The notes below the pieces were generated by a model that saw nothing but the letters and a program-made list of their open reading frames with translations, made no database searches and was not told the DNA's origin. Positions 2,488 to 50,282 of a stretch of 64,000 nt of DNA are shown in pieces. Positions within the stretch are counted from its first letter, which is position 1, and each line of letters begins with the position of its first letter. Source of the stretch: Holophagaceae bacterium (GTDB lineage Bacteria > Acidobacteriota > Holophagae > Holophagales > Holophagaceae); NCBI GenBank assembly GCA_016722505.1, contig JADKJH010000005.1, positions 190,872-254,871 of the forward strand, in the 5' to 3' direction. Both the position numbers and the translations under genes were made by a program.

Positions 2488-4208
2488 CTAGCGGCCCTGC
2501 AATCCCGGGTCCTGGGTGAGCTCCTCGATGAGATCATGCACGCTCATCATGTCCTTGAGGCGGGCGCCATTGCTGCCGGAAAAGAAGAGCCCGCTCTCGC
2601 GGTCCCCGTGCCAAGCATCCGCCAAGCGATCTGCAATGCAATAGCCGACCTCCATGGCGCCTTTGCCGTGGCCACAAGGTGTAAGGCATTGGCTCACGCA
2701 ACGAATTTGAGGCGCGGTGCCTTCTTCCATGCGGGACTGCAGCGCTGTGCGCACTCCGCGGGCGGGCATTCCCACGGGCGACTTCATCAGGACGATGTCA
2801 TCGGCTTCCGCTTTCAGAATCGTTTCTTTGAAGTTGGGGTGGGCGTCACATTCAAAGGTGCCGATGAAGCGTGTGCCCATCTGCACACCGGATGCGCCTA
2901 GCGCCAGGAAACGCATGATGTCAGCGCGGTCCCATACACCACCGGCCACCAGCACGGGGAAATCCCCCCAGTTATCCCGCTCCGCGAGCACCGAGGGCAG
3001 CAGGTTCTCGATGGTGAAAGCAGGGTCCACGCATTGTTCAGGGCTGAAGCCCTGGTGGCCGCCGCTTTCGGGGCCTTCCAGCACCACCGCATCTGGCAAT
3101 CGCCCATATTTCCGTTGCCACTGCTTGCAGATGACACTCAAGGCGCGTGCGGAGGAAACGATCGGCACCAGCGCCACATCCGCATCCCCACATATCCTGG
3201 CAAAGCCAAGGGCAGCCCTGCGCCAGATACGATCATTTGCGCGCCAGCCGCCACCGCGGCCCGCACCGTGGCCTCGTAACCTTCGATGGCGCACAGGATG
3301 TTGACGCCCACGGCGCCTCGGCCTTCGGCCCGCTCCAACGCGGCGTGCAGGATGGTTGCAAGGGCTTCGGGTGGATTCAAAGAGGACGTCCCGTCAGGTC
3401 TGCCGAACCTCTGAGGACTGCGGGCAGAAGGGTGGTAGCCAGTTCCGATGGCTGATACTAGGCCTACGCAACCTTCTCGCGCCACGGCCCCCGCAAGGCC
3501 CTCCCAGGACACGCCCACGCCCATCCCGCCCTGTTGGATGGGATAGGACAAATCCAGATTGCGGATCCGCAAGCGAGACATATTACCTGGACCTTTTCGC
3601 AATAGCATCTGATCGGTCCGATCTAGGCCCTCCATCAACCGCGAGGTGAATTGCGGCAAAGAAGGCTCATCAAGGAGCACCGGTGACCGGGGTTGAAGGG
3701 CGAAAGCGCCTGCTTCCATGCCTTGCCGCGCCTGGGCTTCATTTTCAGCGATGGCGAGAATCGGCAATCCATGATGATTCAACGACTGGACCTTGTCAGC
3801 GGGCGCCAATAAGGCCGATGCGCCCTGGGCGCGAGCCTGGCTGGCTTCCTCCTCGTTCGCAACCGCCACAATGCGGGGGACATTAATTCCTAACAGGGCT
3901 TGCATCGCCGGTGGAAGTTCAGCCGTATGCAGCAAGAAGGCCACACCTGCTTCCCTTGCCGCCGCAAGAACCCCATCGGTGCCACCGCGAAGCCCCCGTA
4001 GATCAAGTCCAAGTTTGGCATTGCCTCGCACTGAAGCCGCTAATTCCTGCAAACGCTCTTTCAGCCGTGCCGCATCCGGGAATGCCTCGGTCCGCGGCAA
4101 GGCCCACCCGCCAGCCCTAAGAAATGTCGCGCTCAGATCCAAAGCGCCAGGGGCTTGCCATCCCTGAAGAACAGCGCTTGCATCATCTGCGAATAGGTAT
4201 TTGGCCAT
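2488..4208 (-). pseudogene. Nitronate monooxygenase / 2-nitropropane dioxygenase (NMO, FMN TIM-barrel) family protein with a roughly 200 aa N-terminal extension; frameshifted between 3138 and 3294
   Basis: N fragment carries IQQGGMGVGVS...VSGAGLP; C fragment carries VALVPIVSSARALSV...DAVVLEGPESGGHQGF. The two fragments are in different frames and overlap 3138..3294. Confidence 0.7.
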
Positions 4209-32967: not shown

Positions 32968-35685
32968 CTAGAAGGCGGCCCTGGCGCTGAATTGCATGAC
33001 GCGGCCCTGCTGGTAGTTGTTGGGCTTCTGGGCCAGGTTGTTCGTAGCGCTCAAAGGCTGGGCATTGGTGAGATTCAAGACGTCCAATCCCAGGCGCAGA
33101 TCAGCGCCCTGGACTTTTTTGTGCCATGCGAAAGTGATGTCGAAACTACGGGCCCAAGGCAACTCACGGGCACCGCGAGCTTCACCTGGCGCTAGAACGG
33201 CGTTCCCGGAGACCTTGGCCAGGTTCGCGTAATGCAGGCCTGAGCGGATATTGAACGTCCCGGAAAGCTCAAGATTCAAGGGCAGCTTGGCCAATCCATA
33301 GGCTTTGAAATTGTGGCGGACATCTTCGTTGAGCGGACCGTCATACTTGCCCTGCCGGTAGTCTTCCGCAAGACCAGGAATCTGCGCGAAACCCGTGTTG
33401 GAAGGCGAGCTGCTGGCCACGTTCCCGACCTCGGAATTGCCGCTTAACCGGGCATTCGTGTAACTGAATCGCATCCAGTGGCCACCGTCAAAGGCGTGTT
33501 CCGCCACCAGATCCAAGCCGTTGTAATCGCGCTTCAGTCCCGGCAGATTGCCGATGACCCTCACGCCTGGCATAAAAGCCGGCAGGCCGAGATCAGCTGG
33601 GGCCAGGTAGCCCCAGGAAGGGTTGTAGGTGTCCACGAGATCTCTCATTGTTTTGCGGGTGTAAAGCACATCCAAAGTCCATTCACCCATGAATGCGCCG
33701 AGGTTCTGGACGCGCTGGGCGCCCACCTGGATCAGATCGGTGGAAGGCGACTTCAAACCCGGTTGCACTGCGAGTGTTTTCGGCACCACGACGCCCGCGG
33801 AGGCATAAGTCTTCCAAGCTGCCTGGGAGGGCACCCAAACCTGCTGCGTGGTGGAAGGTCCATCCGTCGTGGCGCCTGCGGGGCGCAGCGCGCCCGGCGA
33901 AGGCGGGCTGAAGATGCGGCCGAAGTAAGCGAACACGCGGGTCTGCCCGCGGCCATCGGGGTTCCAGGACACGCCCAAGCGCGGGCTCACCAGGGTTTGG
34001 CTGTAGAGTTCGTGTCCATCCTCGCCATCCGCGCTGGCCTTGTCCACGCGAAGGCCCAGATTGAAAGTCCAATAGGCATCGAGATGGTAGTCATCCTGAG
34101 CATAGAGGCCGATAGTCTTGGCCTTGAGAGGGCTCCCATATTCATTCAGGTCACTGAGAGTCCGACGGTAGAGAAAGCTCGCCACGCCCCCAAACAACTG
34201 GCCCGAAATAGGGCTCGGGGTCACCAGACTATCTAGATTCGCATAACCAAAATCGGATCCGCTGTTGGAGATCAACCCGGCGCGAATGGCCGCGATGTCT
34301 CCATTGCTAGGGCCTGCGCCGCCCGCGGCGCGATCCAGGTAGGAAAGGCCACCTGAGGGCCGCAAGAATACCCGGGTGAATTCCGAATCCAGCGCCTGGA
34401 GTCCGCCTTTGACAACATGCTCACCGTAATACCAGGTGAGTTCGCTCTTCACGGTCAGGTTTTTCACGCGCTCCAGGCGGTCCTCCGGGCTGCGGCCAAA
34501 GGACTCGCCGCCTGCGGCATCCAATTGGCCCCGGTAGGGACCGGCCTCGGGCGTGGCTGGCGACCATTGGAAAGCCGTCTGGTGCAACCCGATGGTGTTC
34601 TCCCAGGCGAGATTTCCGCCCAACAAACCCACATGCTTTGCCAAGAAGCTGTTGCCGCCCCGGGTGCGGTTGGCCTGCTGGAAATCCTTCACGGAGCTGT
34701 CGCCGGCCAGATCGAAATTGTATTGGGTGACGGGGTCGCCGAACCAGCTCAGATCCAGCCGATGGTTTTCGTTGAGGACCCAGGAGAGCTTGAGAAAGCG
34801 GTAGCTCCGGTCTTCGGATTGGATGCGGCGATGCGGCGGTGTTCCGATGGGCTGTACGTTCTCGAAATCCTGGGCCAGCAACTGGCGGTTGAAGGTGCCG
34901 AAGAAAAACAGTTTGTCCTTTATGAGAGGGCCGCTGAAGGAGAACCCGAATTCCGATGCGTCCGTGGGCCGCTCTTCGGGGGTGTTGGTTTTGCCGTCCT
35001 CTGGCTTGGCATTGTTGCCGCGGTTGATGCGGCTCGCGAACAGCGCGCCGTGGAAATCGTTGCCGCCGCTCCGGGTGACCTGGTTGTACACGGCTCCGGC
35101 CGCGAATCCATCCTCTGCCTTGTGGCCGCCGGTGGTGATGACCTGGCTTTCCAGGATTTCGCTGCTCATGTTCATGCCGAAGCGGCCCGTGGAGCTGAGA
35201 TTGGTGCTCATGCCATCCACCAGGAAGGCGTTGGCGTCCAGCATGGAGCCGTAGACCACGGGCTCGGGTTTTCCGCTAGGCGTGATGCCCGGCGCCAAAT
35301 AGCTGTGCTCCACGAAGCGGTGCGGCGCGAAGGGCAGGCTCTGCAGCTCAGCCTGGGTGAATCGCGTCTGCACACCCACGGAGCTGGTTTCCGCCAACAA
35401 AGGGGAAGCTTCCACCGCGACGGTGGCCTGCGCGTCGCCGATGCGCACGGTGACAAAGACCCGCTCATCCGGACGGAGGAGCACTTCCTTGCCATTGAGC
35501 CGGTAGCGGCCGGGGATCAGGCCGGAAGTTCCGGCCACACCCTCAGCATCGGTCACAAGGGTCCGGACTTCGCCGCGGTCCACAGTTTTGTCGAATTGAT
35601 CAGAAAATTCACAAAAGCTCCACGGAGAAGAAGGAGCCAGTCTATCTGACAAGAACATTAAATGTACATGGCAAAAACCATTCAA
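32968..35685 (-). CDS. TonB-dependent receptor-like outer-membrane beta-barrel with CarboxypepD_reg domain; 5'-truncated, no signal peptide
   Basis: CarboxypepD_reg segment starts at about residue 35; TonB plug/barrel features; C-terminal aromatic ...QFSARAAF. The annotated ATG abuts the stop of the upstream gene, leaving no room for the expected signal peptide and first roughly 45 aa. Confidence 0.7.
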   Translation of the reverse strand: MNGFCHVHLMFLSDRLAPSSPWSFCEFSDQFDKTVDRGEVRTLVTDAEGVAGTSGLIPGRYRLNGKEVLLRPDERVFVTVRIGDAQATVAVEASPLLAETSSVGVQTRFTQAELQSLPFAPHRFVEHSYLAPGITPSGKPEPVVYGSMLDANAFLVDGMSTNLSSTGRFGMNMSSEILESQVITTGGHKAEDGFAAGAVYNQVTRSGGNDFHGALFASRINRGNNAKPEDGKTNTPEERPTDASEFGFSFSGPLIKDKLFFFGTFNRQLLAQDFENVQPIGTPPHRRIQSEDRSYRFLKLSWVLNENHRLDLSWFGDPVTQYNFDLAGDSSVKDFQQANRTRGGNSFLAKHVGLLGGNLAWENTIGLHQTAFQWSPATPEAGPYRGQLDAAGGESFGRSPEDRLERVKNLTVKSELTWYYGEHVVKGGLQALDSEFTRVFLRPSGGLSYLDRAAGGAGPSNGDIAAIRAGLISNSGSDFGYANLDSLVTPSPISGQLFGGVASFLYRRTLSDLNEYGSPLKAKTIGLYAQDDYHLDAYWTFNLGLRVDKASADGEDGHELYSQTLVSPRLGVSWNPDGRGQTRVFAYFGRIFSPPSPGALRPAGATTDGPSTTQQVWVPSQAAWKTYASAGVVVPKTLAVQPGLKSPSTDLIQVGAQRVQNLGAFMGEWTLDVLYTRKTMRDLVDTYNPSWGYLAPADLGLPAFMPGVRVIGNLPGLKRDYNGLDLVAEHAFDGGHWMRFSYTNARLSGNSEVGNVASSSPSNTGFAQIPGLAEDYRQGKYDGPLNEDVRHNFKAYGLAKLPLNLELSGTFNIRSGLHYANLAKVSGNAVLAPGEARGARELPWARSFDITFAWHKKVQGADLRLGLDVLNLTNAQPLSATNNLAQKPNNYQQGRVMQFSARAAF

Positions 35686-36059
35686 TTTCCCTTGCCGCTC
35701 CAGGCCTGCAACCCCACCCCCACCACAATGATGGCGAGGGCCACCCAGCGCATGGGCGGGATCGCTTCAGCCAGGAAGGCCCTCGCCAGCACCGCGTTGG
35801 CGATGAACCCGAGCGCAAGGAAGGGATAGGCGTAGTTCACGTCCACCAGGGATAGGGCGCCCAACCACACCACCACACTCACCGCGTAGCAGGCGAGACC
35901 TGCCAGCACCCAGGGCTGAAGCATCAAACGCACCAGCGCGCCAAATTCCACTTGCATTCCGCCCGCGGCGTTAAGGCCCTTCTTAAGGCAGATTTGCGCC
36001 AGGGCATTGAGCAACACACCGATAACGATTAGAGGGATGGCTTTAAAGTTGGGGGACAT
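35682..36059 (-). CDS. ArnE/ArnF-like SMR/EamA-family small membrane protein (undecaprenyl-phosphate-aminoarabinose flippase subunit-like)
   Basis: 4-TM 125 aa protein with an EamA-like half; sits immediately downstream of GT-C glycosyltransferases. Confidence 0.7.
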   Translation of the reverse strand: MSPNFKAIPLIVIGVLLNALAQICLKKGLNAAGGMQVEFGALVRLMLQPWVLAGLACYAVSVVVWLGALSLVDVNYAYPFLALGFIANAVLARAFLAEAIPPMRWVALAIIVVGVGLQAWSGKGN

Positions 36060-36078: not shown

Positions 36079-37506
36079 TCATTTAAGGAGTTGGTGCGTC
36101 ATCGGATCCTTGGCATTGATTTGACTGCGCAGTTTGGAGTCCAGACCGCGGAAACCCCAGGTGCCGATAATGAAAAACACCACGCAAACGGTCGCGGCGG
36201 TTTCGCGCACCAGGAATTCGCCCTCTCCATTGGCGCACCGAACACTCACCGAAAGCGCTCCCAGGGCCAATACCAGCGTAGCCAACCGCAGGGGTCCAAG
36301 CATGGGTGCGGCGGCGGCCTGAAGCCCAGCTCCCCCCAGACGAACCATACAAACTGCGAAAAAAGCGATGGAGGCCAACCAAAGCGCCGTGGCCATCACG
36401 GCTCCGATGCGCCGGATGCGGCCCATGCTGACGCCTTCCACGTAGACGGGTTGCAGCAACCCCGCCAGCAGCAAGGCCAGAAATGGATAGGCCATCAGCG
36501 GATCGGTCCCCCGCGTTCCATCACCCCACAGGCAGCTTGAAAACGGAACCAGGAACGCGAGTATCAAGAAGCGGGCGATGGGCGCTTTGTGGGCGCCGCT
36601 GCCCCTCAGGAAAATGACCAGGGCCGGCAGCAGCAGCGCCCAAGGGAACAGGTCCCGCACCAGGTATTCAGCATAAATCCAGGGGGATTGGATGCTTGAA
36701 AAACCCTGCAAGACGGCCTTAAACCCCGGCACCGGGACCAGGTTCCATGCGCATCCTGTAACCCCGACCGCGGCGAGAAGGAAGAATCCCCGATTCAAAA
36801 GGGTTTCTTTCAGGGCTTTCAAATCGGCCTGCCAGACCAGGAAGAGCAGAAGCAGCAGCGACGAGAACAGGAGCGGTTGCGGGCCTTTGATGAGAAAAGC
36901 GAGGCCAAGCCAGAGAGGCGATTTCCTGAACCAGCTCCGATGCTCATTCTCCTGTCCTTCGGCCTGGCGCCGCAGCAGCAGGTAGCCGGCCAGCCAACTG
37001 AGCCAGCTCCAGGCGAGCAGGGCGGAATACAGCAGGTCCACCTGGATGGCCTGCGACTGCCAGAACCAGATTGGCGTGGAACAAAGTATCAGCGTCGCCA
37101 GGCCCGCCACGTCGCCTTGGAGAAAGCGGGACGCCCACCGCCGGAAAAAACAAAGAAACAAGATGGAGCCGAGGATCGATGGAAGGCGCAGCGGCCAGGC
37201 CGGAAATCCGGATGCCGATCCGCTTCCCTGAAGCCCGGCCAACGCTGCCGGAATCTTTGTCAGCCAGAGATACAGGATGGATGATTCACCCAGTTCCTGG
37301 GGAGACCAGCTCCCCCGGTTCAGGAGGTCCCAGGTCAGGTCCGATATCCGGCGTTCATCGCCCCCCCAGGAACCCCGGCTGGATATCACGGCGATGAGCA
37401 ATATCCCGTACAGGATGACGATGCGGTTCTCCCGCACCCACTCCCCTAGCCGCTGCCCGGGAATCCGGGTTTCGCGGTGCTCTGAAAATTCATCAACTTC
37501 ATCCAT
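36079..37506 (-). CDS. GT-C fold membrane glycosyltransferase (GT39/GT83 PMT_2-like)
   Basis: Polytopic, 475 aa, GDERR first-loop motif, PMT_2-like hydrophobic core. Confidence 0.7.
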   Translation of the reverse strand: MDEVDEFSEHRETRIPGQRLGEWVRENRIVILYGILLIAVISSRGSWGGDERRISDLTWDLLNRGSWSPQELGESSILYLWLTKIPAALAGLQGSGSASGFPAWPLRLPSILGSILFLCFFRRWASRFLQGDVAGLATLILCSTPIWFWQSQAIQVDLLYSALLAWSWLSWLAGYLLLRRQAEGQENEHRSWFRKSPLWLGLAFLIKGPQPLLFSSLLLLLFLVWQADLKALKETLLNRGFFLLAAVGVTGCAWNLVPVPGFKAVLQGFSSIQSPWIYAEYLVRDLFPWALLLPALVIFLRGSGAHKAPIARFLILAFLVPFSSCLWGDGTRGTDPLMAYPFLALLLAGLLQPVYVEGVSMGRIRRIGAVMATALWLASIAFFAVCMVRLGGAGLQAAAAPMLGPLRLATLVLALGALSVSVRCANGEGEFLVRETAATVCVVFFIIGTWGFRGLDSKLRSQINAKDPMTHQLLK

Positions 37507-37559
37507 CCCCCCAGTGTCCCCCGGCGCCCTCGCCGGGCAAAGCGCATACTCAACAGGGA

Positions 37560-37853
37560 ATGGGAGGACCTATGCGCACCTTCATCCTTTGCACCCTGCT
37601 CGCCGTGCTGCCCTGCGTCGCCCAGGGCGCCAAGGAACAGATCAAATCGGATTTCAAGGAAGCTGGCAAAGACATCGCTCAAGCGGGGAAGAAAATAGGG
37701 CATGCCGCCAAGAAAGGTGGCAAAAAGGTCGGCCTGGTTGCGAAGGATAGTGGCAAAGCCATCGGCAAAGCCGCGAAGGAAAGCGGAAAAGCTGTTGGGA
37801 AAGGTGCCAAGGATGCCGGCCAAGGCGTGAAGAAAGCCCTGAAGAAGAAATAG
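37560..37853 (+). CDS. Secreted lysine-rich protein with five 11-residue repeats ([IV]G-x-AAK-x-SGKA)
   Basis: Signal peptide MRTFILCTLLAVLPCVAQG; mature part about 75 aa and highly cationic; repeats KIGHAAKKGGK / VGLVAKDSGKA / IGKAAKESGKA / VGKGAKDAGQG. Confidence 0.6.
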   Translation: MGGPMRTFILCTLLAVLPCVAQGAKEQIKSDFKEAGKDIAQAGKKIGHAAKKGGKKVGLVAKDSGKAIGKAAKESGKAVGKGAKDAGQGVKKALKKK

Positions 37854-37870: not shown

Positions 37871-39551
37871 CTATTTCAACCTTGCCAAAACCGTGCTGGG
37901 GCTGCGTCTAAGTTCCTGCCATTCCGACCGTTGGGTTTCGGGCAATCTGCCCCAATCATCCCTGTGGGCCAGCACCATCACCGGCTTCGATGGATCCTCG
38001 GATCTCATCCGCTGGGCGACGGTGCCAAGTTTCAATGGATCCTCCATGAACCAGCGATCCTGCTCAGCCTGGGCCAGCTGCCGTTTGCCGAATCCCAGCT
38101 CGCCGGTGCCGGCCACCACCACACAGCGCTGGCGCGTATGGAATGGAAGGCCCTGGAAATAGACGCCGAAGCTGATCCACTGGGCATTTGAAGGAGCGCG
38201 ATGGATCAGGGGGGCAACATCTTTTCCCGCGCTGGCCACGCGATCCGACACGAACACCAGCGCCAGCATGCAGCCGCCCAGGGAGGCCATCCAGCGAGGC
38301 GCGGTCAGGTGCTTCGGATACAAGGCGAACAGACCGACCAGTCCGAACGCGATGCCCAGTGCAACCACCCAGCCGTTGGCGTGGTTGAGATCCTTGGCGA
38401 AAACGAATCCGCCGATCAGGAAGATGGCGCCGAGCACGAACAACTCAACAGCGATCCGCTTCAAGCTGCGGAATTCTTCACCCTTTTCCTCGAAGGTGCA
38501 CCCCAGGGCCAGCATCGGCACTACGACGGGCAGGATGTAGGGCGCCAGCTTCGAGCCCGACACGCTGAAGAAAAAGAGGGGCCAGGCGAACGCCATCAGC
38601 ATCGTCGCCACGGTCCAACGGTTCAAGGCGGCTTCGAGGCCTTGAGGCCCCGTGGTCCGGCGTACGAAGGCGAGGCCCCGCTTGAGCCCGACAAGGCTAT
38701 GGCTGAGCCATGGGAGCATCCCCACCAGCAGGATTCCCGGGAAGTAGAGCTTGTCCAAGAACGGATTATCCGAACCCTGACGCGCGTGCTCATGCGTGAG
38801 GAACCGCGTGATGTGCTCATGGATGAAAAAGAACTGCGCGTGCCCCGGGTTGGCTTTGTTGACGAAGTAGAACCAGGGTGCCGTCAGCGCGAGGAAGAGC
38901 AGCCAGCCCAAAGGGATTGAACCCCATCGTCAGCACCGCTTTCCGCAGCTTCAGGTCCTTCCACGCGAAGGGCAGCGAAAGCCCCAGGATTCCGACCAGC
39001 AGCACCAGCGCGACAGGTCCCTTGGTCAGCACGGCAGCCGACAACGCGATGTAGGTCAGGAGAGTCCAGCCCATCGAGGCTTCGTTTCGGAATCTTGCTG
39101 CCACCGCTTCTAGCGCCGCTGTGAGTCCCAATACCAGGAATGCGGAAAAGAGCGCATCCAGCGTCAGTAGCTGGCTGCACACAAACGTCAGAAGCACCGT
39201 GGCCGTCATGACCATGGCCCAGATCGGTCCACGGGCGCCCAGGCGCCGCGCCAGCCGCCAGGCGCACCAGAACAGGATCAGCGAAGCCAGCGCCAAGGGG
39301 AGCCGGGCCGCCACCGCATTCAATCCAAAAAGCTTCATGGATGCCGCGGAAATCCAGTACTGCAACGGCGGTTTTTCGAAATACAGTACGCCGTTGAGGG
39401 TTGGCGTGAGCCAATCGCCAGAAGCCAGCATCTCCCGCGGAATTTCCGCGTAGCGGCCTTCGTCAGGTTCCCAAAGCGGCCGCATGAACAGCGGCAGCAG
39501 CCCCAGGATGGCCCAGAGCATCAGGTAGGTGGTGCGATCACGCTTGGTCAT
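37871..39551 (-). pseudogene. ArnT-like undecaprenyl-phosphate-sugar:lipid A / protein glycosyltransferase (GT83), frameshifted near 38880-38910 (gggg run)
   Basis: N fragment has the EPDEGRYAEIPREMLASGDWLTPTLNGVLYFEKPPLQYW ArnT/PMT signature; C fragment continues with APWFYF...HEHITRFL. The two are in different frames and overlap 38817..38911. Confidence 0.75.
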
Positions 39552-39564
39552 GGCTCGGCAGGTG

Positions 39565-39665
39565 GTGAGGTGGAGAGGTATGAGGGGCGAGGTTCAATAA
39601 GGTGGCGGCCAAAGGCCACATCAGCTAGTGCGCTGAAGGCGCACCCCTCATATCTCATACCTCAC
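39565..39665. repeat. Structured intergenic repeat element, copy 1 (about 101 bp, 25-bp imperfect terminal inverted repeats, internal hairpins); overlaps the stop codon of the arnA-like gene
   Basis: Left arm gtgaggtggagaggtatgaggggcg, right arm gcgcacccctcatatctcatacctcac. Core ttcaataaggtggcggccaaaggccacatcagctagtgcgctgaaggcgcac is about 80% identical to 61038..61145. Confidence 0.7.
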
Positions 39666-40732
39666 CCCTCCTCCTCCACCTGCTCCATGGCTTCGTACTC
39701 TTTCAGGAAGAAGTCGAGGCTCTTGGCCAGGGCCTCCTTCATGCTGACTTTGGGATCGAACCCGAAGGCGTCCTGCATCCGCTTGATGCTGGGTGTCCGC
39801 GTCAGCACATCCTGGTAGCCCTTGCCATAGAACGTCCCGCTGCTGGTTTCCACCAGTTCCGATAGCGGAATATTCCGCTTGATGCGCTCCGGGTGGACCC
39901 TCCACAACTCCAGCAGCATCTCCGCCACCTCGCGGACGCTGTGGTCGAGCTTGGGATTGCCGATGTTGAAGATATGGCCATCGGCCTTCCCTCCTTCATT
40001 TTTCAGCACCATCATCAGCCCGTCCATGGCGTCTTCCACGTCAATGAAGCAACGGCGCTGGGCGCCGCCGTCCACTAGCTGCAGCGGTTCGCCCTGGATC
40101 AGGTTCCACACGAATTGGGTCACCAGCCGCGAACTGCCTTCCTTCGCGGTGTTGAGGCTGTCCAGTTTGGGTCCCATCCAATTGAAAGGCCGGATCAGCG
40201 TGAATTTCAAACCATCCCGCTGGCCGTAGCCCCAGATCACGCGGTCCAGCAGCTGCTTGCTGGTGGAATAGATCCAGCGCTGCATGGGGATGGGGCCGGT
40301 CACTAGGGGAGAGGTCTCCTCGTCGAAAGCCGCGTCCGGGCACATGCCATAGACTTCCGAAGTGCTCGGGAACACCACGCGCTTTTTGTACTTCACGCAT
40401 TGGCGCACGATTCGCAGATTCTCTTCGAAATCCAACTCGAAAACCCGCAACGGATCCTGGACATAGATCTTCGGCGTAGCGATGGCGACCAGGGGCAGCA
40501 CCACGTCGCACTTCTTCACGTGGTACTCGATCCATTCTTTGGAGATGGTGATGTCGCCTTCCACGAAATGGAAGCGGTCATGGCCCAAATGTTCCGTGAC
40601 CTTATGGGTGCCGAGATCCATCCCGTACACCTCCCAATTGGTATCGCGCAAGATGCGCCCCACCAGGTGGGAACCGATGAATCCGTTGACGCCGAGGATG
40701 AGGACTTTCACATGTGCTCCAGAACAAACCAT
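39662..40732 (-). CDS. Standalone ArnA C-terminal dehydrogenase domain homolog (UDP-glucuronic acid oxidative decarboxylase, UDP-4-keto-pentose forming)
   Basis: Strong collinear similarity to E. coli ArnA residues about 317-660 (ILGVNGFIG, HFVEGDI, EWIEYHVKKCDVVLPLVAIATP, RVFELDFEENLRI, FPSTSEVYGMC, RWIYSTSKQLLDRVIWGYG, GNP...). Confidence 0.9.
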   Translation of the reverse strand: MVCSGAHVKVLILGVNGFIGSHLVGRILRDTNWEVYGMDLGTHKVTEHLGHDRFHFVEGDITISKEWIEYHVKKCDVVLPLVAIATPKIYVQDPLRVFELDFEENLRIVRQCVKYKKRVVFPSTSEVYGMCPDAAFDEETSPLVTGPIPMQRWIYSTSKQLLDRVIWGYGQRDGLKFTLIRPFNWMGPKLDSLNTAKEGSSRLVTQFVWNLIQGEPLQLVDGGAQRRCFIDVEDAMDGLMMVLKNEGGKADGHIFNIGNPKLDHSVREVAEMLLELWRVHPERIKRNIPLSELVETSSGTFYGKGYQDVLTRTPSIKRMQDAFGFDPKVSMKEALAKSLDFFLKEYEAMEQVEEEG

Positions 40733-40794: not shown

Positions 40795-41490
40795 TCAGAT
40801 CCCCAGCGTCCGCCGCAATTCTTCCATCCGGCGGCGGCTGACGGGGATCCGCCCGCTCGACAGCACCAGATCATCGTCCGCGCTCAGCTCCCGGATGGCC
40901 TGGACCCGGACCAGCGCGTTGCGGTGAACCCGGAAGAAGCCCTGGTCCTTCAAGCGTTCCTCCCAGAAGGCCAGTGTGCCGTCCACCGGTAGGCGGCCCT
41001 CCGCCACCCAGGCCACGCAATCACCCAAATCCGCCACCAGCGCGTCCACCTCTTCGGGCTGCAACAGGCGGGTGCCGGACTTTCGGCGGACGGGGATGCG
41101 CCGCCACTCCCGCTGGAGCGGCTCGTCCTTGGGGCGGATCCTGGAGATGGCCTGCGCCACACCGACCCGCGAAATGGGCTTGAGTAGATAGTGGACCGCG
41201 CCGCCAGCGAAGGCCTCCACAGCGTGCTGCGGATGGGCCGTCACGAAAACCACCGCAGGTTTCGGTTCCGACAGGAGCTGCATCAGTTCCACACCTTTCA
41301 TCCCTGGCATCTCGATGTCGAGGAACGCCGCGTCAGGCTTTAGTCCGGCAATAGCGGCAAGTCCAGCGCGGCCGTTTTCGGCCGTGGCCACCACTTCGAT
41401 TCCCGGAAGCTCCGAGAGCAGGTCCGCCAGATGCTGGCGCGCCAAGGGCTCGTCCTCCACCACGACCACGCGTATCAAGGTTGCCTCCAC
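40795..41490 (-). CDS. LytR/AlgR-family response regulator (CheY receiver + LytTR DNA-binding domain)
   Basis: Receiver with phospho-acceptor D (FLDIEMPGMKG); LytTR domain at the C-terminus. Confidence 0.85.
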   Translation of the reverse strand: MEATLIRVVVVEDEPLARQHLADLLSELPGIEVVATAENGRAGLAAIAGLKPDAAFLDIEMPGMKGVELMQLLSEPKPAVVFVTAHPQHAVEAFAGGAVHYLLKPISRVGVAQAISRIRPKDEPLQREWRRIPVRRKSGTRLLQPEEVDALVADLGDCVAWVAEGRLPVDGTLAFWEERLKDQGFFRVHRNALVRVQAIRELSADDDLVLSSGRIPVSRRRMEELRRTLGI

Positions 41491-42518
41491 CGGAAGCTTG
41501 CCACGGTGCGGGCATCTATTCGTTCCAGGCTCAAATCCTGGGGCTTCGAGAGGCGGCCCCGGAGCGTCGCCAGCGCCGTGCCGGTCCCCCGCTGGAAGCC
41601 GATGCCCGTGCCAGGATCGCTCACCTCCACCACCAGGACTTTCCCCTCCTGCCTCGCCCCGATGCGGATCTCCCCGCCACCCTCCAATGGCGCGATGCCA
41701 TGCTTCACAGCATTCTCCACGAGCACCTGCAGCGAAAGCGGCGGCACCGATGCGGATTCAAGTTCTTCGGGGATGTCCACGCGGACCCTCAGCCTTTCGC
41801 CCAGCCGCGCCTGCTCGATGCCCAGGTAGGCTTCGACGAATCCAAGCTCCTGCTTGAGCGGGATCGCCGCCGAATCCGAAACCTCGATCGCCTGCCGGAA
41901 GAGCTGGGCCAACCGCTCCGTAGTGGCCTGTGCCCCGCGCGGATCCGCTTCGATCTGCGCGTGGAGCGTGTTCAACGTGTTGAAGATGAAATGCGGCGCG
42001 AGCTTCGCGCGGAGCGCCTGCTCCCTGGCCAGCAGTTCCAGGTTTTCCAGCCGGGACTGATGTTCGCGGCCCACGATGCTTCCCAATATCATCACGGGGA
42101 AAAGCACGAGGAACAGCACCGAAACCGGCGCGTGGTGCCCCAGGATTTGGGAACCGGCCGCCAGGGCAACGCCAACAGGGACCGCGATCATCACGCTGCG
42201 GGCTTCCATCCGGGCCCGCCAGGCCTCAAATTCACGGGGCGAGAAGGTAGCCAGTTTGGATCGGCGGATTTCCTTCAATCTGAGCAGGATGATGAAATAG
42301 CAAACAAACCCCGCGCACAGGAGCAATCCAATCATCCAAGGATGAGGCAACCCGCCCCGCGCCTCCATCCAACGGCTATCGAGAAGACCCTGCACAACGG
42401 CATAGGGGAGCACCAGGGTCAAGATCCACCCTAGCCCACCATCAAGAGACCGGGTCATCCCAAGGGGGTGGAAAAGTTGCTGCAGCTTGAACGGGGGACT
42501 TGCGGGGACCTGCGACAT
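41475..42518 (-). CDS. LytS/YehU-type sensor histidine kinase (His_kinase PF06580 + HATPase_c)
   Basis: 4 N-terminal TM helices; HFIFNTLN H-box typical of LytS-type kinases; N/G boxes (LVENAVKHG, DPGTGIG); 16-nt overlap with the response regulator gene. Confidence 0.8.
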   Translation of the reverse strand: MSQVPASPPFKLQQLFHPLGMTRSLDGGLGWILTLVLPYAVVQGLLDSRWMEARGGLPHPWMIGLLLCAGFVCYFIILLRLKEIRRSKLATFSPREFEAWRARMEARSVMIAVPVGVALAAGSQILGHHAPVSVLFLVLFPVMILGSIVGREHQSRLENLELLAREQALRAKLAPHFIFNTLNTLHAQIEADPRGAQATTERLAQLFRQAIEVSDSAAIPLKQELGFVEAYLGIEQARLGERLRVRVDIPEELESASVPPLSLQVLVENAVKHGIAPLEGGGEIRIGARQEGKVLVVEVSDPGTGIGFQRGTGTALATLRGRLSKPQDLSLERIDARTVASFRWRQP

Positions 42519-42716
42519 GAAATTCCTCCAACACCAGAATCGCCCAATCGCTCAAGTCCGGTTCAGCCACCCCGTGATCGGCAATACGACGCCGTGAATG
42601 GCTTCACCGTGCCCTTGAACGGTCGCGCAGAGCAGCGCTTGCCCTGCCCGGTTCCCATTTCGGCCGCTCCGCCCCTCGCGGTTCGGCTTTCCCCGGTACT
42701 TCCTGCGACCCGAAGT

Positions 42717-43771
42717 TCAAACCCGGCAGACCACTTTCCCGAAGCCCTGCCCCGCCTCCAGGTGCCGCTGCGCCTCGGGGTAATCAGCGAGATTGAACAC
42801 CCGGTCGATGACGGGCCGGAAGGGCGGGTTGGTGGGATTGCGCTGGATATGCCCCAGCAGGGTCCACAGGTGTTCGCGGCGGCCCATGTAGGATCCGAGG
42901 AAGGTGAGTTGCCGGGCGAAAAGGGAGCGGAGGTCCAGCGTGATTTCGCGGCCCGTGGTGGCGCCGCAGGTGACGATGCGGCCCCCACGCGCGACGGAGG
43001 CGACGCTGGTCGCCCAGCTCGCGGCCCCCGTGTGTTCAAAAACCAGGTCCACTCCGCGCTTCTGGGTCAGCTCCTTCACTTTTATCGCCACATCCTGGAT
43101 GTCGCGGACGATGACATGCTCGGCGCCCAGTTCCCAGCACTTCACGGCTTTCATCTGATTGCCCACCACGGCGATGGCATGGCCACCAAGGAATTTCACC
43201 AATTGGATGGCCGCACTGCCTACGCCGCTGCTACCACCCCAAATCAAGACCGTTTCGCCCGGTTTCAGGTTGGCTTTATGCACAAGCATTTCCCAAGCAG
43301 TGAGGAAGACCAGCGGAAACGCCGCCGCCTGCTCAAAGTCCCAGTTTCCCGGGATGGGCAGCAGGTTGGCCGCAGGCACCATCACCTGGGTGGCTGCGGT
43401 GCCATCACAGGCATGGCCCATAACCTTATAGTCGCGGCAAAGCATATCGTCGCCCCGCAGGCAGGCCGCGCAGACGCCGCAGCTGAGCCCCGGCGCGATC
43501 ATTGCGCTGCCATTCAGTTCCACGCCTGGCGGCAAAATCGTGCCTTCCCCCACGGCCTCCACGAGGCCTGCGCCATCGCACCGGGGGTGAGCGGCAGCGG
43601 CAAGGGATACCCTTTCAGCCCCACCGTGGTCCACAGATCCAGATGGTTGAGCGCCATAGCCTTTAGTTGAAGCCTCACCCAGCCTGGCTTTGGGTCCTGC
43701 GGTTCGAAACCTTCCCGAACCACAGAACCGGCGGGGCCATGCTCATTCACGCGGAAACGGTAGGCGTTCAT
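42717..43771 (-). pseudogene. Zinc-type/MDR-family quinone oxidoreductase (alcohol dehydrogenase superfamily), frameshifted near 43540-43600
   Basis: N fragment MNAYRFRVNEHGPAGSVVREGFEPQDPKPGWVRLQLKAMALNHLDLWTTVG (GroES-like); C fragment ...CDGAGLVEAVGEGT...LIWGGSSGVGSAAIQL (Rossmann). Different frames, overlap 43514..43634. Confidence 0.7.
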
Positions 43772-47440: not shown

Positions 47441-48863
47441 TCAAAACGACATCACCTTCATCGTGTTCGTGCTGCCGCTCTTCCATAAGGGCAGCCCCAT
47501 GGTCATCACGATTTGATCTCCGGGATTCAGTTCGTGGTGGGCTAGAAGGAGTTCACGAAGGGCTTCCACCATTTCATCGGAACTTTCCACCCGGGGAATG
47601 ATGAGGGCCTTCACGCCCCGCAACAGGCCCATGCGCCGGGCACTTGCGATATCCGTGGTGGCGCCCAGCACGGATATCTTGCCAGCCAGGCGCGAAACCA
47701 TGCGGGCGCTGCCACCGCCTTCAGTGAAGGCCACGATCCAGCGAGCTTGAATTTCTTCAGCCGTGCGGCAGGCGGAAAAGGCCACGGAAATATCAGCCCG
47801 ACCATGGATTTTCGTGGCCAGTTCCCGCTGGATGGAATCGGTCCCGCGCTGCTGCTGGGAATCCGCTTCCATGGCGATGCGCACCAGCCATTGCACCGCT
47901 TCCACCGGGTACTGTCCTGTGGCGCTCTCGGCGCTGAGCATGACGGCATCGGTGCCATCCCAGATGGCATTGGCCACGTCGCTGGCCTCGGCTCTTGTGG
48001 GCTGAGGATTCACGATCATAGACTCGAGCATTTGCGTCGCAGTGATGACCGGCTTCAGCGCCCTTCGCGCGGCGCGGATGATGCGCTTTTGCAGCCCCGG
48101 CACGCGCTCCACGCCTAATTCGACCCCGAGGTCTCCCCGGGCCACCATCACCCCCCAGGAGACTTCGAGAATTTCCTCGAGATGGGCCAGGGCCAGGGGG
48201 TGCTCGATCTTGGCGATGATGGGTTGCGAGCCGCCTTGCTGCTCAATGCGCGCCTGCAGCAGCCGCACATCTTCTGCCCCCCGCACGAAACTCTGCGCGA
48301 ACAGATCCACGTCGTGGGCCACACCCCATTTGATATCGGCGAGATCTTTTTCCGTCAAGGGATCCATCGCCACATCGAGGCCCACGGGATGGACGCCTTT
48401 CCGCGCTTTCAGCAGGCCCCCCACCACCACCCGCGCCACCACAACCACCCCATTGGATTTGGTGACTTCCAGCTTCAACGCGCCATCATCCAACAGCCAG
48501 ACCTGGCCCGGCCTGGCCGCAGCAAAAAGTTCTGGATGAGGCAATGGCGCGGCCCACGCAAAGCCGGTGGGCGCGGGCGTTTCCGGGGGAATGCAACACT
48601 CCCGTGCTGCCTACCTCCAACTGCACCGGTTCATCCAGCAACCCGATGCGCCACTTGGGTCCTTGAAGATCCAAAAATATCGGGATGTGACGTCCCAGTT
48701 CCAAGCTGACAGCCCGGACCTCGGAGAGCACTTTTGCCCTGGATTCTGGGTCGCCATGGCTGGCGTTGAGGCGCACCGCGTCCGCCTCCAATAATATTTC
48801 CCGCAGCTTGGAAGAATCCTGAAGCGCCGGTCCCATGGTTATGACGATCTTGGTTTTGCGCAC
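47441..48863 (-). pseudogene. pyk: Pyruvate kinase, split by a frameshift in a C5 run (about 48555-48565)
   Basis: N fragment MRKTKIVITMGPA...IFLDLQGPK; C fragment ...MVARGDLGVE...AMLSAESATGQYPVEAV.... Different frames, overlap 48486..48544; junction at cattcccccggaaacg. Confidence 0.85.
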
Positions 48864-49278: not shown

Positions 49279-50282
49279 ATGAAGAAACTTGCAATCAACG
49301 GCCTGGGCCGGATCGGCCGGCTGGTCCTTCGGCTCTTGATAAAAGACCCCCAAGTCCAGGTGGTAGCGGTGAACGATCTCACCGACGCGGCGACATTGGC
49401 GCATCTCATAAAACACGACTCTGTGCACGGCACCGCGGATTTCCCTGTGGCCGCCGATGGCGATTTTCTTGTGCTGGATGGAAAGCGCATCCGCGTTTAC
49501 GCGGAAAAAGATCCACAGCTCATCCCGTTCGGCGCGTTGGGCGCGCAAGTGGTGTTGGAGTGCACTGGCATCTTCACCAAGAAAAATCAGCTTCCGCGCA
49601 TATCCAGGGCACCGTGAGCCACGTCATCATCAGCGCACCGGCCGACGATGCCGATCGCACGGTGGTGATGGGCATCAACGAGCAGGAGATCGATCCCGCC
49701 AAAGAATCCGTCCTTTCAAATGCCAGCTGCACCACCAACTGCCTGGCACCCATGGTCCAGGTGCTGGATCAGGCATTCGGCCTTGAACTCGGATTGATGA
49801 CCACGATCCACAGCTACACCAACGATCAACGGATCCTCGATCTCCCCCACAAGGACTTGCGCAGGGCCCGGGCCGCTGCACTTTCCATGATTCCCACCAG
49901 CACGGGGGCGGCAAAAGCCATAGGGCTCGTGATGCCGCATCTCAAGGGAAAGCTGGATGGCATTTCGGTCAGGGTTCCCACTGCGGACGTAAGCCTTACG
50001 GATCTGACCGCGACGCTCAAAACCGACGCATCCAAGGACGCTGTGAACGCGGCATTCAAGCAGGCCAGCCTTGAAGGCCCCCTGGCGCCTTATCTGGACT
50101 ATCTGGAAGAAGAACTCGTCAGCGTGGATCTCATCGGCAGCCCCGCCAGCTGCAGCTTCGATCCCTATCTCACCAAAGCTCTCGGGCCTCGCATGGTCAA
50201 GGTCTTCGGCTGGTACGACAACGAATGGGGATATTCAGCCCGGCTCAAGGATCTCTGTATGCATGTCTTGAACAAGCTTTGA
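49279..50282 (+). pseudogene. gap: Glyceraldehyde-3-phosphate dehydrogenase (type I), split by a frameshift in an A5 run (about 49583-49590)
   Basis: N fragment MKKLAINGLGRIGR...LECTGIFTKK; C fragment ...VSHVIISAPA...SNASCTTNCLAP...WYDNEWGYS. Different frames, overlap 49560..49617. Confidence 0.85.

What the first reader, a model, noticed from the sequence alone, without database searches (positions are those of the whole stretch)
37560..37853. Secreted, highly cationic 11-mer-repeat protein encoded on the opposite strand in the middle of the ArnT-like cluster
A 97-aa ORF with a clear signal peptide (MRTFILCTLLAVLPCVAQG) is followed by five 11-residue repeats of the form [IV]G-x-AAK-x-SGKA (about 25% Lys). 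11-mer periodicity is the hallmark of amphipathic lipid-surface-binding helices (apolipoproteins, alpha-synuclein, LEA group 3). A periplasmic or secreted polycationic amphipathic protein embedded in a cluster that probably reduces envelope negative charge is intriguing. It could be an envelope-binding chaperone, a self-made cationic peptide to which the cluster provides immunity, or a sensor ligand for the LytS-like kinase.
Basis: partly seen in the sequence, partly recalled or inferred. Interest (0 to 1): 0.55.

Follow-up and report, generated by a model that had tools for sequence, protein, structure and literature searches.

The report
Secreted cationic 11-mer-repeat helix protein
This is a real small gene for an exported, very lysine-rich protein built to form one long amphipathic helix; it belongs to an undescribed bacterial family and, only in Holophagaceae, sits backwards inside an ArnT-type envelope sugar-modification operon.

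Summary
The ORF is real. The CDS is most likely 37572-37853 (93 aa), and orthologues show purifying selection (median dN/dS 0.30). It encodes a signal peptide plus a ~74-residue mature chain: 30% Lys, 18% Gly, net +15, about 6.7 hendecads. The hydrophobic moment of the whole chain peaks at 98 degrees (z 7.4), and AlphaFold gives a single helix. There is no Pfam, NCBIfam or PDB relative. Exhaustive HMMER finds about 300 clusters of similar small "hypothetical proteins" in Holophagaceae, Rhodanobacteraceae and unassigned metagenome contigs.

In every Holophagaceae locus the gene lies antisense between an ArnA-decarboxylase-like/ArnT-like pair and a second GT-C/ArnE-F-like pair, with almost no intergenic space. 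It is missing where the second GT-C is missing. Distant family members sit in other contexts (prfB-lysS, pqiABC, csbD), so the ArnT link is lineage-specific. The LytS/LytTR pair is a window-specific insertion, which removes the support for the "kinase ligand" idea. Hydrophobicity is well below that of lytic antimicrobial peptides.

Best reading: a non-lytic periplasmic or envelope polycation that folds on anionic lipid or LPS surfaces, with expression coupled to the surrounding operon. This mechanism is inferred, not shown. Interest is moderate: an undescribed family in a suggestive but lineage-restricted context.

The parts
37572..37853 (+). CDS of the small secreted polycationic hendecad-repeat protein (93 aa plus stop; an alternative upstream ATG at 37560 gives 97 aa)
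   Evidence: ORF. Start supported by the SD at 37562-37568 and by the in-frame stop upstream in L004. Purifying selection: median dN/dS 0.30, with all 100 usable pairs below 0.61.
37572..37628 (+). Signal peptide MRTFILCTLLAVLPCVAQG (predicted SPase I cleavage after AQG)
   Evidence: Read from the sequence. An N-terminal hydrophobic segment is present in 222 of 225 small family members. No lipobox. No dedicated predictor was available.
37629..37850 (+). Mature chain of 74 aa, about 6.7 hendecads, net +15; predicted to form one continuous 3-11 amphipathic helix
   Evidence: Lag-11 z 6.4. Hydrophobic moment peaks at 98 degrees, z 7.4. AlphaFold gives a helix over residues 24-91, mean pLDDT 63.5.
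37507..37571 (.). 65-bp divergent control region shared with the second GT-C gene. It contains GCAAAGCGCATACT (37537-37550), which is identical in L006; L004 keeps GCAAAGCGCATACT too. It also contains the SD GGGAGGA (37562-37568).
   Evidence: Intergenic comparison. The consensus promoter scan finds no sigma-70 site here, so the promoter assignment is an inference.
36079..37506 (-). Second GT-C glycosyltransferase (PMT_2), divergent from the small gene; co-varies with it across loci
   Evidence: Pfam PMT_2, E 1.5e-5, just under the gathering score. No NCBIfam or PDB hit. Every relative that has this gene next to arnT also has the small gene; relatives without it lack the small gene.
35682..36059 (-). 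ArnE/ArnF-like small membrane protein (EamA/SMR type), last gene of the divergent pair
   Evidence: NCBIfam ArnE 3.9e-9 and ArnF 4.3e-8, both below cutoff. 74-90% identical in relatives.
37871..39551 (-). ArnT-like GT-C (GT83 type), convergent with the small gene (17 nt between the two stops). Split here by one extra base in the CCC run at 38907-38909.
   Evidence: Pfam PMT 2e-18 and Arnt_C. NCBIfam ArnT 119 + 55 bits, far below the 567 cutoff. Motif RPLWEPDEGRYAEIPRE. The intact orthologue hits only the C. metallidurans ArnT structure 5ezm, E 1e-37. Frameshift shown.
39662..40732 (-). ArnA C-terminal-like UDP-glucuronate decarboxylase (UDP-4-keto-pentose/UDP-xylose synthase), first gene of the conserved module
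   Evidence: NCBIfam NF008872 at 540.6 bits against a cutoff of 294; ArnA residues 315-649 at E 6e-158. 66-95% identical in relatives.

Best explanation
Shown by the tools:
- The gene is a genuine protein-coding gene.
- Its product has a Sec-type signal peptide followed by about 74 residues of lysine/glycine/alanine-rich hendecads.
- Its amphipathic stripe has exactly the 11/3 period.
- It belongs to an unannotated family of a few hundred clusters.
- In Holophagaceae it is embedded antisense in a conserved module: ArnA-decarboxylase-like, ArnT-like, small gene, second GT-C, ArnE/F-like.

Inferred:
- After export to the periplasm the chain is largely unfolded, because of its high charge, 18% Gly and low hydrophobicity.
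- It folds into a long, straight 3-11 helix when it lies on a polyanionic surface. Candidate surfaces are the phosphates of lipid A/LPS or anionic phospholipid head groups.
- In that helix the Val/Ile-Ala-Ala-Ser ridge faces the interface, and Lys at repeat positions 3, 6 and 10 contacts the phosphates.
- It would therefore act as a non-lytic, charge-shielding or stabilising envelope protein.
- The gene fills the whole gap between two same-strand gene pairs: 65 nt to the start of the second GT-C, 17 nt to the arnT stop, and no terminator. Its transcription must therefore collide with, or be antisense to, read-through of the glycosyltransferase operon. This probably couples the two, possibly reciprocally.
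For: Real gene:
- Orthologues were found in 12 Holophagaceae/Geothrix genome loci and about 10 metagenome loci.
- Median dN/dS is 0.30.
- Length variation occurs largely in 11-residue units.

Amphipathic 3-11 helix:
- The whole-chain hydrophobic moment peaks at 98 degrees, z 7.4. All 16 orthologues behave the same way, as do 224 of 225 small family members.
- AlphaFold predicts a single helix over residues 24-91.

Export:
- 222 of 225 members have an N-terminal hydrophobic segment.

Non-lytic surface binder rather than a pore former:
- Mean hydrophobicity is -0.08.
- The periodicity is 98-99 degrees, like alpha-synuclein and the LEA3 consensus. Moricin and cecropin peak at 106-107 degrees.

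Envelope theme in independent lineages:
- The ArnT module in Holophagaceae.
- A position 18 nt upstream of pqiA-pqiA-pqiB-pqiC.
- A position next to csbD.

Tight embedding:
- There is no terminator-like site or stable fold between the convergent stops.
- Only 4-25 nt separate the stops in relatives.
- The start codons of the divergent genes lie roughly 35-120 nt apart across the loci.

Co-variation with the second GT-C/ArnE-F pair:
- L032, L033, L038 and L039 keep the decarboxylase-ArnT pair but have lost both the second GT-C and the small gene.
Against: - No experiment or characterised homologue exists. There is no Pfam, NCBIfam or significant PDB relative, and the motif search of the literature was empty.
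- The apolar face is weak: one Val/Ile per 11 residues, the rest Ala, Ser or Gly. Membrane affinity would therefore depend almost entirely on charge.
- Net charge varies widely across the family (-11 to +20, median +6), so polycation function may not be general.
- Most distant members are not next to envelope genes.
- The Holophagaceae synteny could be inherited order rather than functional coupling.
- A homologous module in a distant taxon (L042) lacks the gene.
- AlphaFold confidence is only moderate (pLDDT 54-77).
- No transcript data support the antisense coupling.
Confidence: 0.42

Rival explanations
1. Generic periplasmic stress protectant (a hydrophilin or LEA-like molecular shield or chaperone) with no functional tie to the ArnT-like genes. 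On this reading the Holophagaceae position is an inherited accident of gene order.
For: Family members occupy unrelated contexts in other lineages, including directly upstream of the general-stress gene csbD. Composition is hydrophilic and Gly-rich (GRAVY -0.83, Gly 18%). The 11-mer repeats resemble group-3 LEA proteins. The synteny evidence comes from a single bacterial family.
Against: The module's surroundings were reshuffled repeatedly: a TonB-receptor insertion, a two-component insertion, and variable distance to the SPFH gene. The small gene nevertheless stayed in place while the neighbouring GT-C diverged to about 40% identity. It disappears together with the second GT-C/ArnE-F pair. 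There is no LEA_4 Pfam match, and the hydrophilin GRAVY criterion is not reached.
Confidence: 0.22
2. Accessory factor of the second GT-C enzyme (36079-37506). It could be a periplasmic partner that presents or retains the anionic acceptor, or a regulator of that enzyme.
For: Presence and absence of the small gene track the second GT-C/ArnE-F pair, not ArnT itself. The two genes are divergent, with start codons only 65 nt apart in the window and at comparably short distances in the relatives.
Against: Most family members in other phyla have no GT-C neighbour. L042 has the second GT-C without the small gene. The second GT-C evolves fast (about 40% identity), with no sign of matched co-evolution having been tested. 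Ser/Thr are not conserved (0-5 per orthologue), so the protein is not an O-glycosylation substrate.
Confidence: 0.15
3. Self-made cationic antimicrobial (bacteriocin-like) peptide, with the ArnT-like lipid A modification providing self-immunity.
For: The protein is cationic, amphipathic, helical and Sec-exported. There are weak compositional matches to the AMP families Clavanin (E 0.08 for the window protein; 3.9e-5 for one of 33 members) and Moricin (E 0.33). It is adjacent to a gene family known to confer polymyxin resistance.
Against: Hydrophobicity is far below that of lytic helical AMPs. The mature chain is 60-80 residues long. No dedicated exporter, immunity gene or processing protease is nearby. 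In Rhodanobacteraceae, homologues are embedded in a housekeeping context between prfB and lysS. The Pfam matches are below every gathering score.
Confidence: 0.08
4. Periplasmic ligand or signal for the adjacent LytS-type histidine kinase and LytTR regulator.
For: The kinase (41475-42518) and regulator (40795-41490) lie 3 kb away on the strand of the GT-C genes.
Against: Neither gene has a counterpart next to the module in any of the relatives. In the closest relative the epimerase-like gene is followed directly by the homologue of 42468-43670. The pair is therefore a window-specific insertion, whereas the small gene is conserved.
Confidence: 0.03

Closest known systems
Alpha-synuclein N-terminal domain (11-mer KTKEGV repeats; lipid-induced 3-11 helix)
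   Same: Imperfect hendecads rich in Lys, Gly, Ala and Val. The whole-chain hydrophobic moment peaks at 98 degrees (the reference sequence was recalled from memory). Low hydrophobicity. Expected coil-to-helix transition on anionic lipid.
   Different: No sequence homology and no Synuclein Pfam match. It is bacterial, Sec-exported, much more cationic (+0.20 against +0.03 per residue) and less hydrophobic (-0.08 against 0.24).
Group 3 LEA proteins (Pfam LEA_4, 11-mer TAQAAKEKAGE) and bacterial hydrophilins
   Same: 11-residue repeats with an Ala/Lys/Gly-rich, hydrophilic composition. Predicted to be disordered and to form an amphipathic helix. One relative is adjacent to the stress gene csbD.
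   Different: No LEA_4 match. Strongly net-positive, whereas the LEA3 consensus is neutral. The hydrophobic moment is twice as large (0.39 against 0.18). GRAVY is -0.83, so the hydrophilin threshold of about -1 is not reached. It carries a signal peptide.
Linear cationic alpha-helical antimicrobial peptides (moricin, cecropin, clavanin)
   Same: Signal peptide plus a Lys-rich amphipathic helix. The local motif GKAVGKG is shared with moricin. There are sub-threshold Pfam matches.
   Different: About twice as long. A straight 98-degree stripe rather than 106-107 degrees. Mean hydrophobicity is -0.08 against 0.24-0.31. There is no hydrophobic C-terminal segment. The matches are not significant for the window protein.
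Entericidin EcnA/EcnB small envelope lipoproteins
   Same: Small, exported, amphipathic-helix envelope proteins with a G-x-G-E/K-D-I-x-x-x-G motif that resembles the first repeats.
   Different: No lipobox. Many repeats instead of one. hhalign probability is 46% (EcnA) and 2% (EcnB), and the Pfam E-value is 9. The Ecn sequences were recalled from memory.
arnBCADTEF (pmrHFIJKLM) lipid A aminoarabinose operon, as the model for the surrounding module
   Same: An ArnT-like GT-C with the DE-x-RYAEI motif, an ArnA-decarboxylase-like enzyme and an ArnE/F-like protein.
   Different: No ArnB, ArnC, ArnD or formyltransferase domain was found in the 64 kb. There is an additional, unclassified GT-C. The ArnT and ArnE/F matches are far below the equivalog cutoffs. 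The small-protein gene embedded antisense was not found next to any of the more distant arnT-like loci sampled here and, from my own knowledge, is not part of the canonical arn operon.

Membership tests
Sec-exported protein (SPase I signal peptide) | Positively charged n-region, a 10-15 residue hydrophobic h-region, and small residues at -3 and -1 | tested here: met
   M-R, then TFILCTLLAVLPCV, then A-Q-G, read from the sequence. A hydrophobic N-terminal 12-mer is present in 222 of 225 family members. No SignalP-type predictor was available, so this is by inspection only.
Bacterial lipoprotein | Lipobox [LVI][ASTVI][GAS]C | tested here: not met
   VLPC has Pro at -1, and the Cys is absent from most orthologues.
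Group 3 LEA (Pfam LEA_4 PF02987) | Match to the LEA_4 profile | tested here: not met
   No match even at E up to 10.
Hydrophilins | Gly above 6% and mean hydrophilicity above 1 (GRAVY below about -1) | tested here: not met
   Gly is 17.6% (met), but GRAVY is -0.83 (not met).
11-mer (3-11) amphipathic lipid-surface helices, as a structural class | 11-residue sequence periodicity and a hydrophobic moment maximal near 98 degrees along the whole chain | tested here: met
   Lag-11 z 6.4. Moment peak at 98 degrees, z 7.4. The same holds in all orthologues and in 224 of 225 relatives.
11-mer (3-11) amphipathic lipid-surface helices, as a structural class | Coil-to-helix transition and binding on lipid | not testable with these tools
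   This needs CD or NMR and liposome co-sedimentation. AlphaFold only shows helical propensity.
Synuclein (Pfam PF01387) and exchangeable apolipoproteins (PF01442) | Profile match or KTKEGV motif; class-A charge layout | tested here: not met
   No Pfam match. Apolipophorin-III 1ls4 scores only E 0.26 in the PDB search.
Cationic helical AMP families (Moricin PF06451, Clavanin PF05452) | Profile match above the gathering score | tested here: not met
   Clavanin 13.6 bits against a cutoff of 21. Moricin E 0.33. 3 of 33 relatives reach E 3.9e-5 or weaker (up to the 0.01 threshold) for Clavanin.
Cationic helical AMP families (Moricin PF06451, Clavanin PF05452) | Hydrophobicity sufficient for bilayer insertion (an 18-mer with mean H of about 0.35 or more in the reference peptides) | tested here: not met
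   The best 18-mer reaches 0.10, against 0.36-0.56 in the references.
Entericidin (PF08085) | Profile match and lipobox | tested here: not met
   Pfam E 9. hhalign 46% and 2%. No lipobox.
Ara4N lipid A modification pathway (for the surrounding module) | ArnT: GT83 fold with the DE-x-RYAEI motif | tested here: inconclusive
   The motif RPLWEPDEGRYAEIPRE is present. The only PDB hit is ArnT 5ezm, E 1e-37. The NCBIfam ArnT equivalog score is 119 + 55 bits against a cutoff of 567.
Ara4N lipid A modification pathway (for the surrounding module) | ArnA decarboxylase step | tested here: met
   NF008872 at 540.6 bits, above the cutoff of 294. ArnA C-terminal half at E 6e-158.
Ara4N lipid A modification pathway (for the surrounding module) | ArnB aminotransferase, ArnC GT2, ArnD deformylase and the ArnA formyltransferase domain | tested here: not met
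   None of these domains was found among the ORFs of the 64-kb window that were scanned. They could be encoded elsewhere in the genome.

The most novel reading that the evidence does not exclude
Holophagaceae make their own periplasmic polycation that binds lipid A/LPS phosphates. They wire it, by antisense (excludon-like) embedding, as the reciprocal alternative to sugar-based charge masking by the ArnT-type operon. This would be a protein-versus-glycan switch for controlling envelope surface charge.
Probability: 0.08. Interest if true: 0.75.

Novelty: new variant of a known kind. Interest (0 to 1): 0.42.

Why it matters
If the inference holds, this is an undescribed and fairly widespread family of bacterial exported proteins. 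Members are seen in Holophagaceae and Rhodanobacteraceae, and other members come from metagenome contigs that I could not assign to a taxon. They use the same physical trick as synucleins, LEA proteins and apolipoproteins, a straight 11/3 amphipathic helix, but in polycationic form and in the cell envelope.

It would add a protein component to the ways Gram-negative bacteria manage the charge and stability of anionic envelope surfaces, alongside lipid A decoration. The antisense embedding in a glycosyltransferase operon offers a simple natural system for studying convergent-transcription coupling in the poorly studied Acidobacteriota. Cultured Geothrix species carry the locus, so the ideas are testable.

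If the gene order is merely inherited, the finding reduces to a new small-protein family of unknown role. That would still be useful for annotation but not surprising.

Tried and rejected
Database and literature searches that found nothing informative:
- Pfam, NCBIfam and PDB sequence searches with the protein and with a 33-member profile. Only sub-threshold or compositional hits came back: Clavanin, Moricin, Ag473, and designed helical repeats or coiled coils.
- Rfam on the whole window: no hit, so no known RNA explains the region.
- TRF on the DNA: no tandem repeat.
- Three literature searches, including exact peptide motifs: nothing relevant.
- Cluster names: all "hypothetical protein", with little taxonomy.

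Ideas tested and set aside:
- Entericidin relationship by hhalign: inconclusive to negative.
- O-glycosylation substrate of the PMT-type enzymes: rejected, because Ser/Thr are not conserved (0-5 per orthologue).
- Lipoprotein: rejected, because there is no lipobox.
- Spurious ORF or antisense artefact: rejected by dN/dS and by family members in unrelated contexts.
- LytS/LytTR linkage: rejected by comparison with relatives.

Technical notes:
- A family-wide alignment (A2) was too diverse for the locus-finding tool. The 4-sequence alignment A1 was used instead.
- The structure search was not run, because a single-helix model gives meaningless matches.
- The sigma-70 and terminator consensus scans found nothing in the control region or between the convergent stops.

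Full report
**Observation**

The ORF at 37560..37853 (+) is present exactly as described. The more likely start is the second ATG at 37572, giving 93 aa. GGGAGGA lies at 37562-37568, and in the closest orthologue (L004) a stop codon sits three codons upstream of the equivalent Met.

The N-terminus MRTFILCTLLAVLPCVAQG has the n-h-c organisation of a Sec signal peptide, with A-Q-G at -3 to -1. It is not a lipobox: Pro is at -1, and the Cys is not conserved.

The mature chain of 74 aa is 29.7% Lys, 18.9% Ala and 17.6% Gly, with net charge +15. Identity at lag 11 is 0.43 against 0.16 in shuffles (z 6.4); at lag 22, z is 5.2. No tandem repeat is detectable in the DNA, so the repeats are old and kept at the protein level. 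The region matches no Rfam family.

**Helix geometry**

The hydrophobic moment of the whole 74-residue chain has a single sharp maximum at 98 degrees, the 11/3 helix. The Eisenberg value is 0.52 against 0.11 +/- 0.055 in shuffles (z 7.4), and there is no signal at 90, 120 or 160 degrees.

On the 3-11 wheel:
- Position 1 (Val/Ile), flanked by Ala5, Ala4 and Ser/Ala8, forms a narrow apolar ridge.
- Gly2 and Gly9 line one side.
- Lys6, Lys10 and Lys/His3 line the other side.
- Asp/Glu7 sits behind them.

AlphaFold2, run with a 33-sequence alignment, predicts one uninterrupted helix from residue 24 to 91. Confidence is moderate (mean pLDDT 63.5), which is typical of chains that fold only on a partner.

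**Is it a gene?**

Yes. A word-indexed search found three relatives. All three lie in the same position relative to PMT/PMT_2 genes.

A scan of one genome per species found 12 loci. All were Holophagaceae, Geothrix or unclassified Acidobacteria bins. Three further weak hits, in Treponema and Chryseobacterium, were not analysed.

Codon-level comparison of 16 orthologues gives a median dN/dS of 0.30, and all 100 informative pairs are below 0.61. Much of the length variation comes in 11-residue units. All orthologues are net-positive (+6 to +15) and all have their moment peak at 98-99 degrees.

**The family**

An exhaustive HMMER search of 1.84 billion representatives gave 292 clusters at E <= 1e-3, of which 20 are at E <= 1e-10. 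A profile search gave 314 clusters at E <= 1e-5. Every one that carries a name is called "hypothetical protein", and the named sources include Rhodanobacter, Dyella and Oleiagrimonas.

Of the 225 small members retrieved:
- 222 have an N-terminal hydrophobic segment.
- 224 have their amphipathic peak at 96-101 degrees.
- 178 have 11 as their best self-identity lag.
- The median net charge is +6, with a range from -11 to +20.

No Pfam or NCBIfam model covers the family. The best PDB sequence matches are designed helical repeats and coiled coils, which reflects composition only. Similar 11-mers also occur inside very long proteins and next to a zincin domain.

**The neighbourhood**

The surrounding genes are as follows.

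| Coordinates (strand) | Assignment | Evidence |
|---|---|---|
| 39662-40732 (-) | ArnA C-terminal-like UDP-4-keto-pentose/UDP-xylose synthase | Passes the NCBIfam cutoff, 540.6 bits |
| 37871-39551 (-) | ArnT-like GT-C | DE-x-RYAEI motif; the intact orthologue's only PDB hit is ArnT 5ezm, E 1e-37 |
| 36079-37506 (-) | Second, unclassified GT-C | Pfam PMT_2 |
| 35682-36059 (-) | ArnE/F-like | |

tblastn of these proteins against all relatives shows the order ArnE/F-like + GT-C2 | small gene | ArnT-like + decarboxylase in every Holophagaceae locus long enough to judge. This holds even though GT-C2 has diverged to about 40% identity and the outer flanks differ.

The packing is very tight. In the window, 65 nt separate the two divergent start codons and 17 nt separate the two convergent stops. 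In relatives the stops are 4-25 nt apart. No terminator-like element or stable fold lies between the stops.

A metagenome scan seeded with the ArnT-like protein returned 80 loci:
- The small gene was found in six of them, all in the 46-60% identity group. In the five of these that extend far enough, GT-C2 lies next to it; L030 ends just after the small gene.
- Four relatives that keep decarboxylase-ArnT but lack GT-C2/ArnE-F also lack the small gene.
- A distant homologous module (L042) has all four enzyme genes on one strand, with an unrelated 244-aa ORF in the gap.
- More distant arnT loci are simply arnT followed by an ArnE/F-like gene.

The likely history is therefore a lineage-specific insertion of a pre-existing family member into the operon gap, followed by retention.

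**What is not linked**

- The LytTR regulator and His_kinase (40795-42518) and the TonB-dependent receptor (32968-35685) have no counterparts at the module in any relative.
- Distant family members lie in other places: between prfB and lysS in Rhodanobacteraceae; 18 nt upstream of pqiA-pqiA-pqiB-pqiC; 25 nt upstream of csbD; and in unrelated places.
- No ArnB, ArnC, ArnD or formyltransferase domain was found in the window. The sugar transferred, and whether it reduces negative charge, remain open.

**Mechanism**

The shown facts support a Sec-exported, intrinsically flexible polycation that can form a straight amphipathic helix about 10 nm long.

Its mean hydrophobicity (-0.08; best 18-mer 0.10) lies between the LEA3 consensus (-0.18) and alpha-synuclein (0.24). 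It is well below moricin, cecropin, LL-37 and magainin (0.20-0.37; best 18-mers 0.36-0.56). Its stripe angle matches the surface binders rather than moricin and cecropin, which peak at 106-107 degrees (the reference sequences were recalled from memory).

I therefore favour non-lytic binding to anionic envelope surfaces, meaning lipid A/LPS phosphates or anionic phospholipids. I also infer expression coupling to the glycosyltransferase operon, because transcription of either must traverse the other. Both the binding and the coupling are inferences.

The rivals are:
- A context-independent stress protectant.
- An accessory factor of GT-C2.
- A self-made antimicrobial peptide.
- A kinase ligand.

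The last is essentially refuted. The antimicrobial reading is disfavoured by hydrophobicity, by length, by the lack of export or immunity genes, and by the housekeeping contexts of homologues.

**Verdict**

The neighbourhood conservation is real but restricted to one bacterial family. The protein is a new, unannotated variant of the hendecad amphipathic-helix theme, with a plausible but untested envelope role. Interest is moderate.

Noticed in passing
window 38907-38909 (within 37871-39551, minus strand): The ArnT-like gene is split into two overlapping ORFs by one extra base in a CCC/GGG run. Deleting one base restores a 559-aa ORF, and all relatives have intact 555-577 aa genes. This is either a recent pseudogene or an assembly indel.
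   Followed up: yes
window 2488-4208, 47441-48863, 49560-50282: Other genes also look split or truncated. Nitronate monooxygenase is in two overlapping ORFs. The pyruvate kinase ORF starts at profile position 114, with a 125-aa ORF just upstream. A GAPDH-like ORF has only the C-terminal domain. Several frameshifts in 64 kb suggest homopolymer indel errors in the assembly rather than true pseudogenes.
   Followed up: partly
window 40795-42518 and 32968-35685: The LytTR regulator/His_kinase pair and the TonB-dependent receptor-like gene are absent from the corresponding positions in all Holophagaceae relatives. This includes L004, whose SPFH gene is 98% identical. They are window-specific insertions flanking the conserved module.
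   Followed up: yes
L019 6001-6363; L026 5001-5294; L027 3719-4012: In Rhodanobacteraceae-type contigs, the homologous Lys-rich secreted protein is encoded between prfB and lysS on the same strand, abutting or overlapping both. A lysine-rich ORF immediately upstream of lysyl-tRNA synthetase is a curious placement and might have a regulatory meaning.
   Followed up: no
L110 532-816; L021 6001-6261: One family member lies 18 nt upstream of pqiA-pqiA-pqiB(MlaD)-pqiC, an intermembrane lipid-transport operon. Another lies 25 nt upstream of a CsbD-family stress gene.
   Followed up: no
L008-L013, about 10-40 nt upstream of the small gene; window 37537-37550: Geothrix-type orthologues carry TAGAAT six nucleotides before the ATG, with an in-frame stop three codons upstream and no Shine-Dalgarno. 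This suggests a leaderless mRNA. The window, L004 and L006 instead share GCAAAGCGCATACT followed by a GGAGG-type site.
   Followed up: partly
proteins P0006, P0009, P0030, P0050: The same 11-residue motif, in the Asn/Trp-rich form VGNAAKDVGNW, is repeated dozens of times in 900-1150 aa proteins with a G-x-KG-x-KWG N-terminus. A Lys-rich version precedes a HELGH zincin-like domain in P0050.
   Followed up: no
window 36079-37506 versus relatives: The second GT-C evolves much faster than its operon partners. It is 39-65% identical in most relatives (77% over a 132-residue fragment in L006). The ArnE/F-like protein is 74-90% identical and the decarboxylase 66-95%. It has no NCBIfam or PDB relative.
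   Followed up: partly
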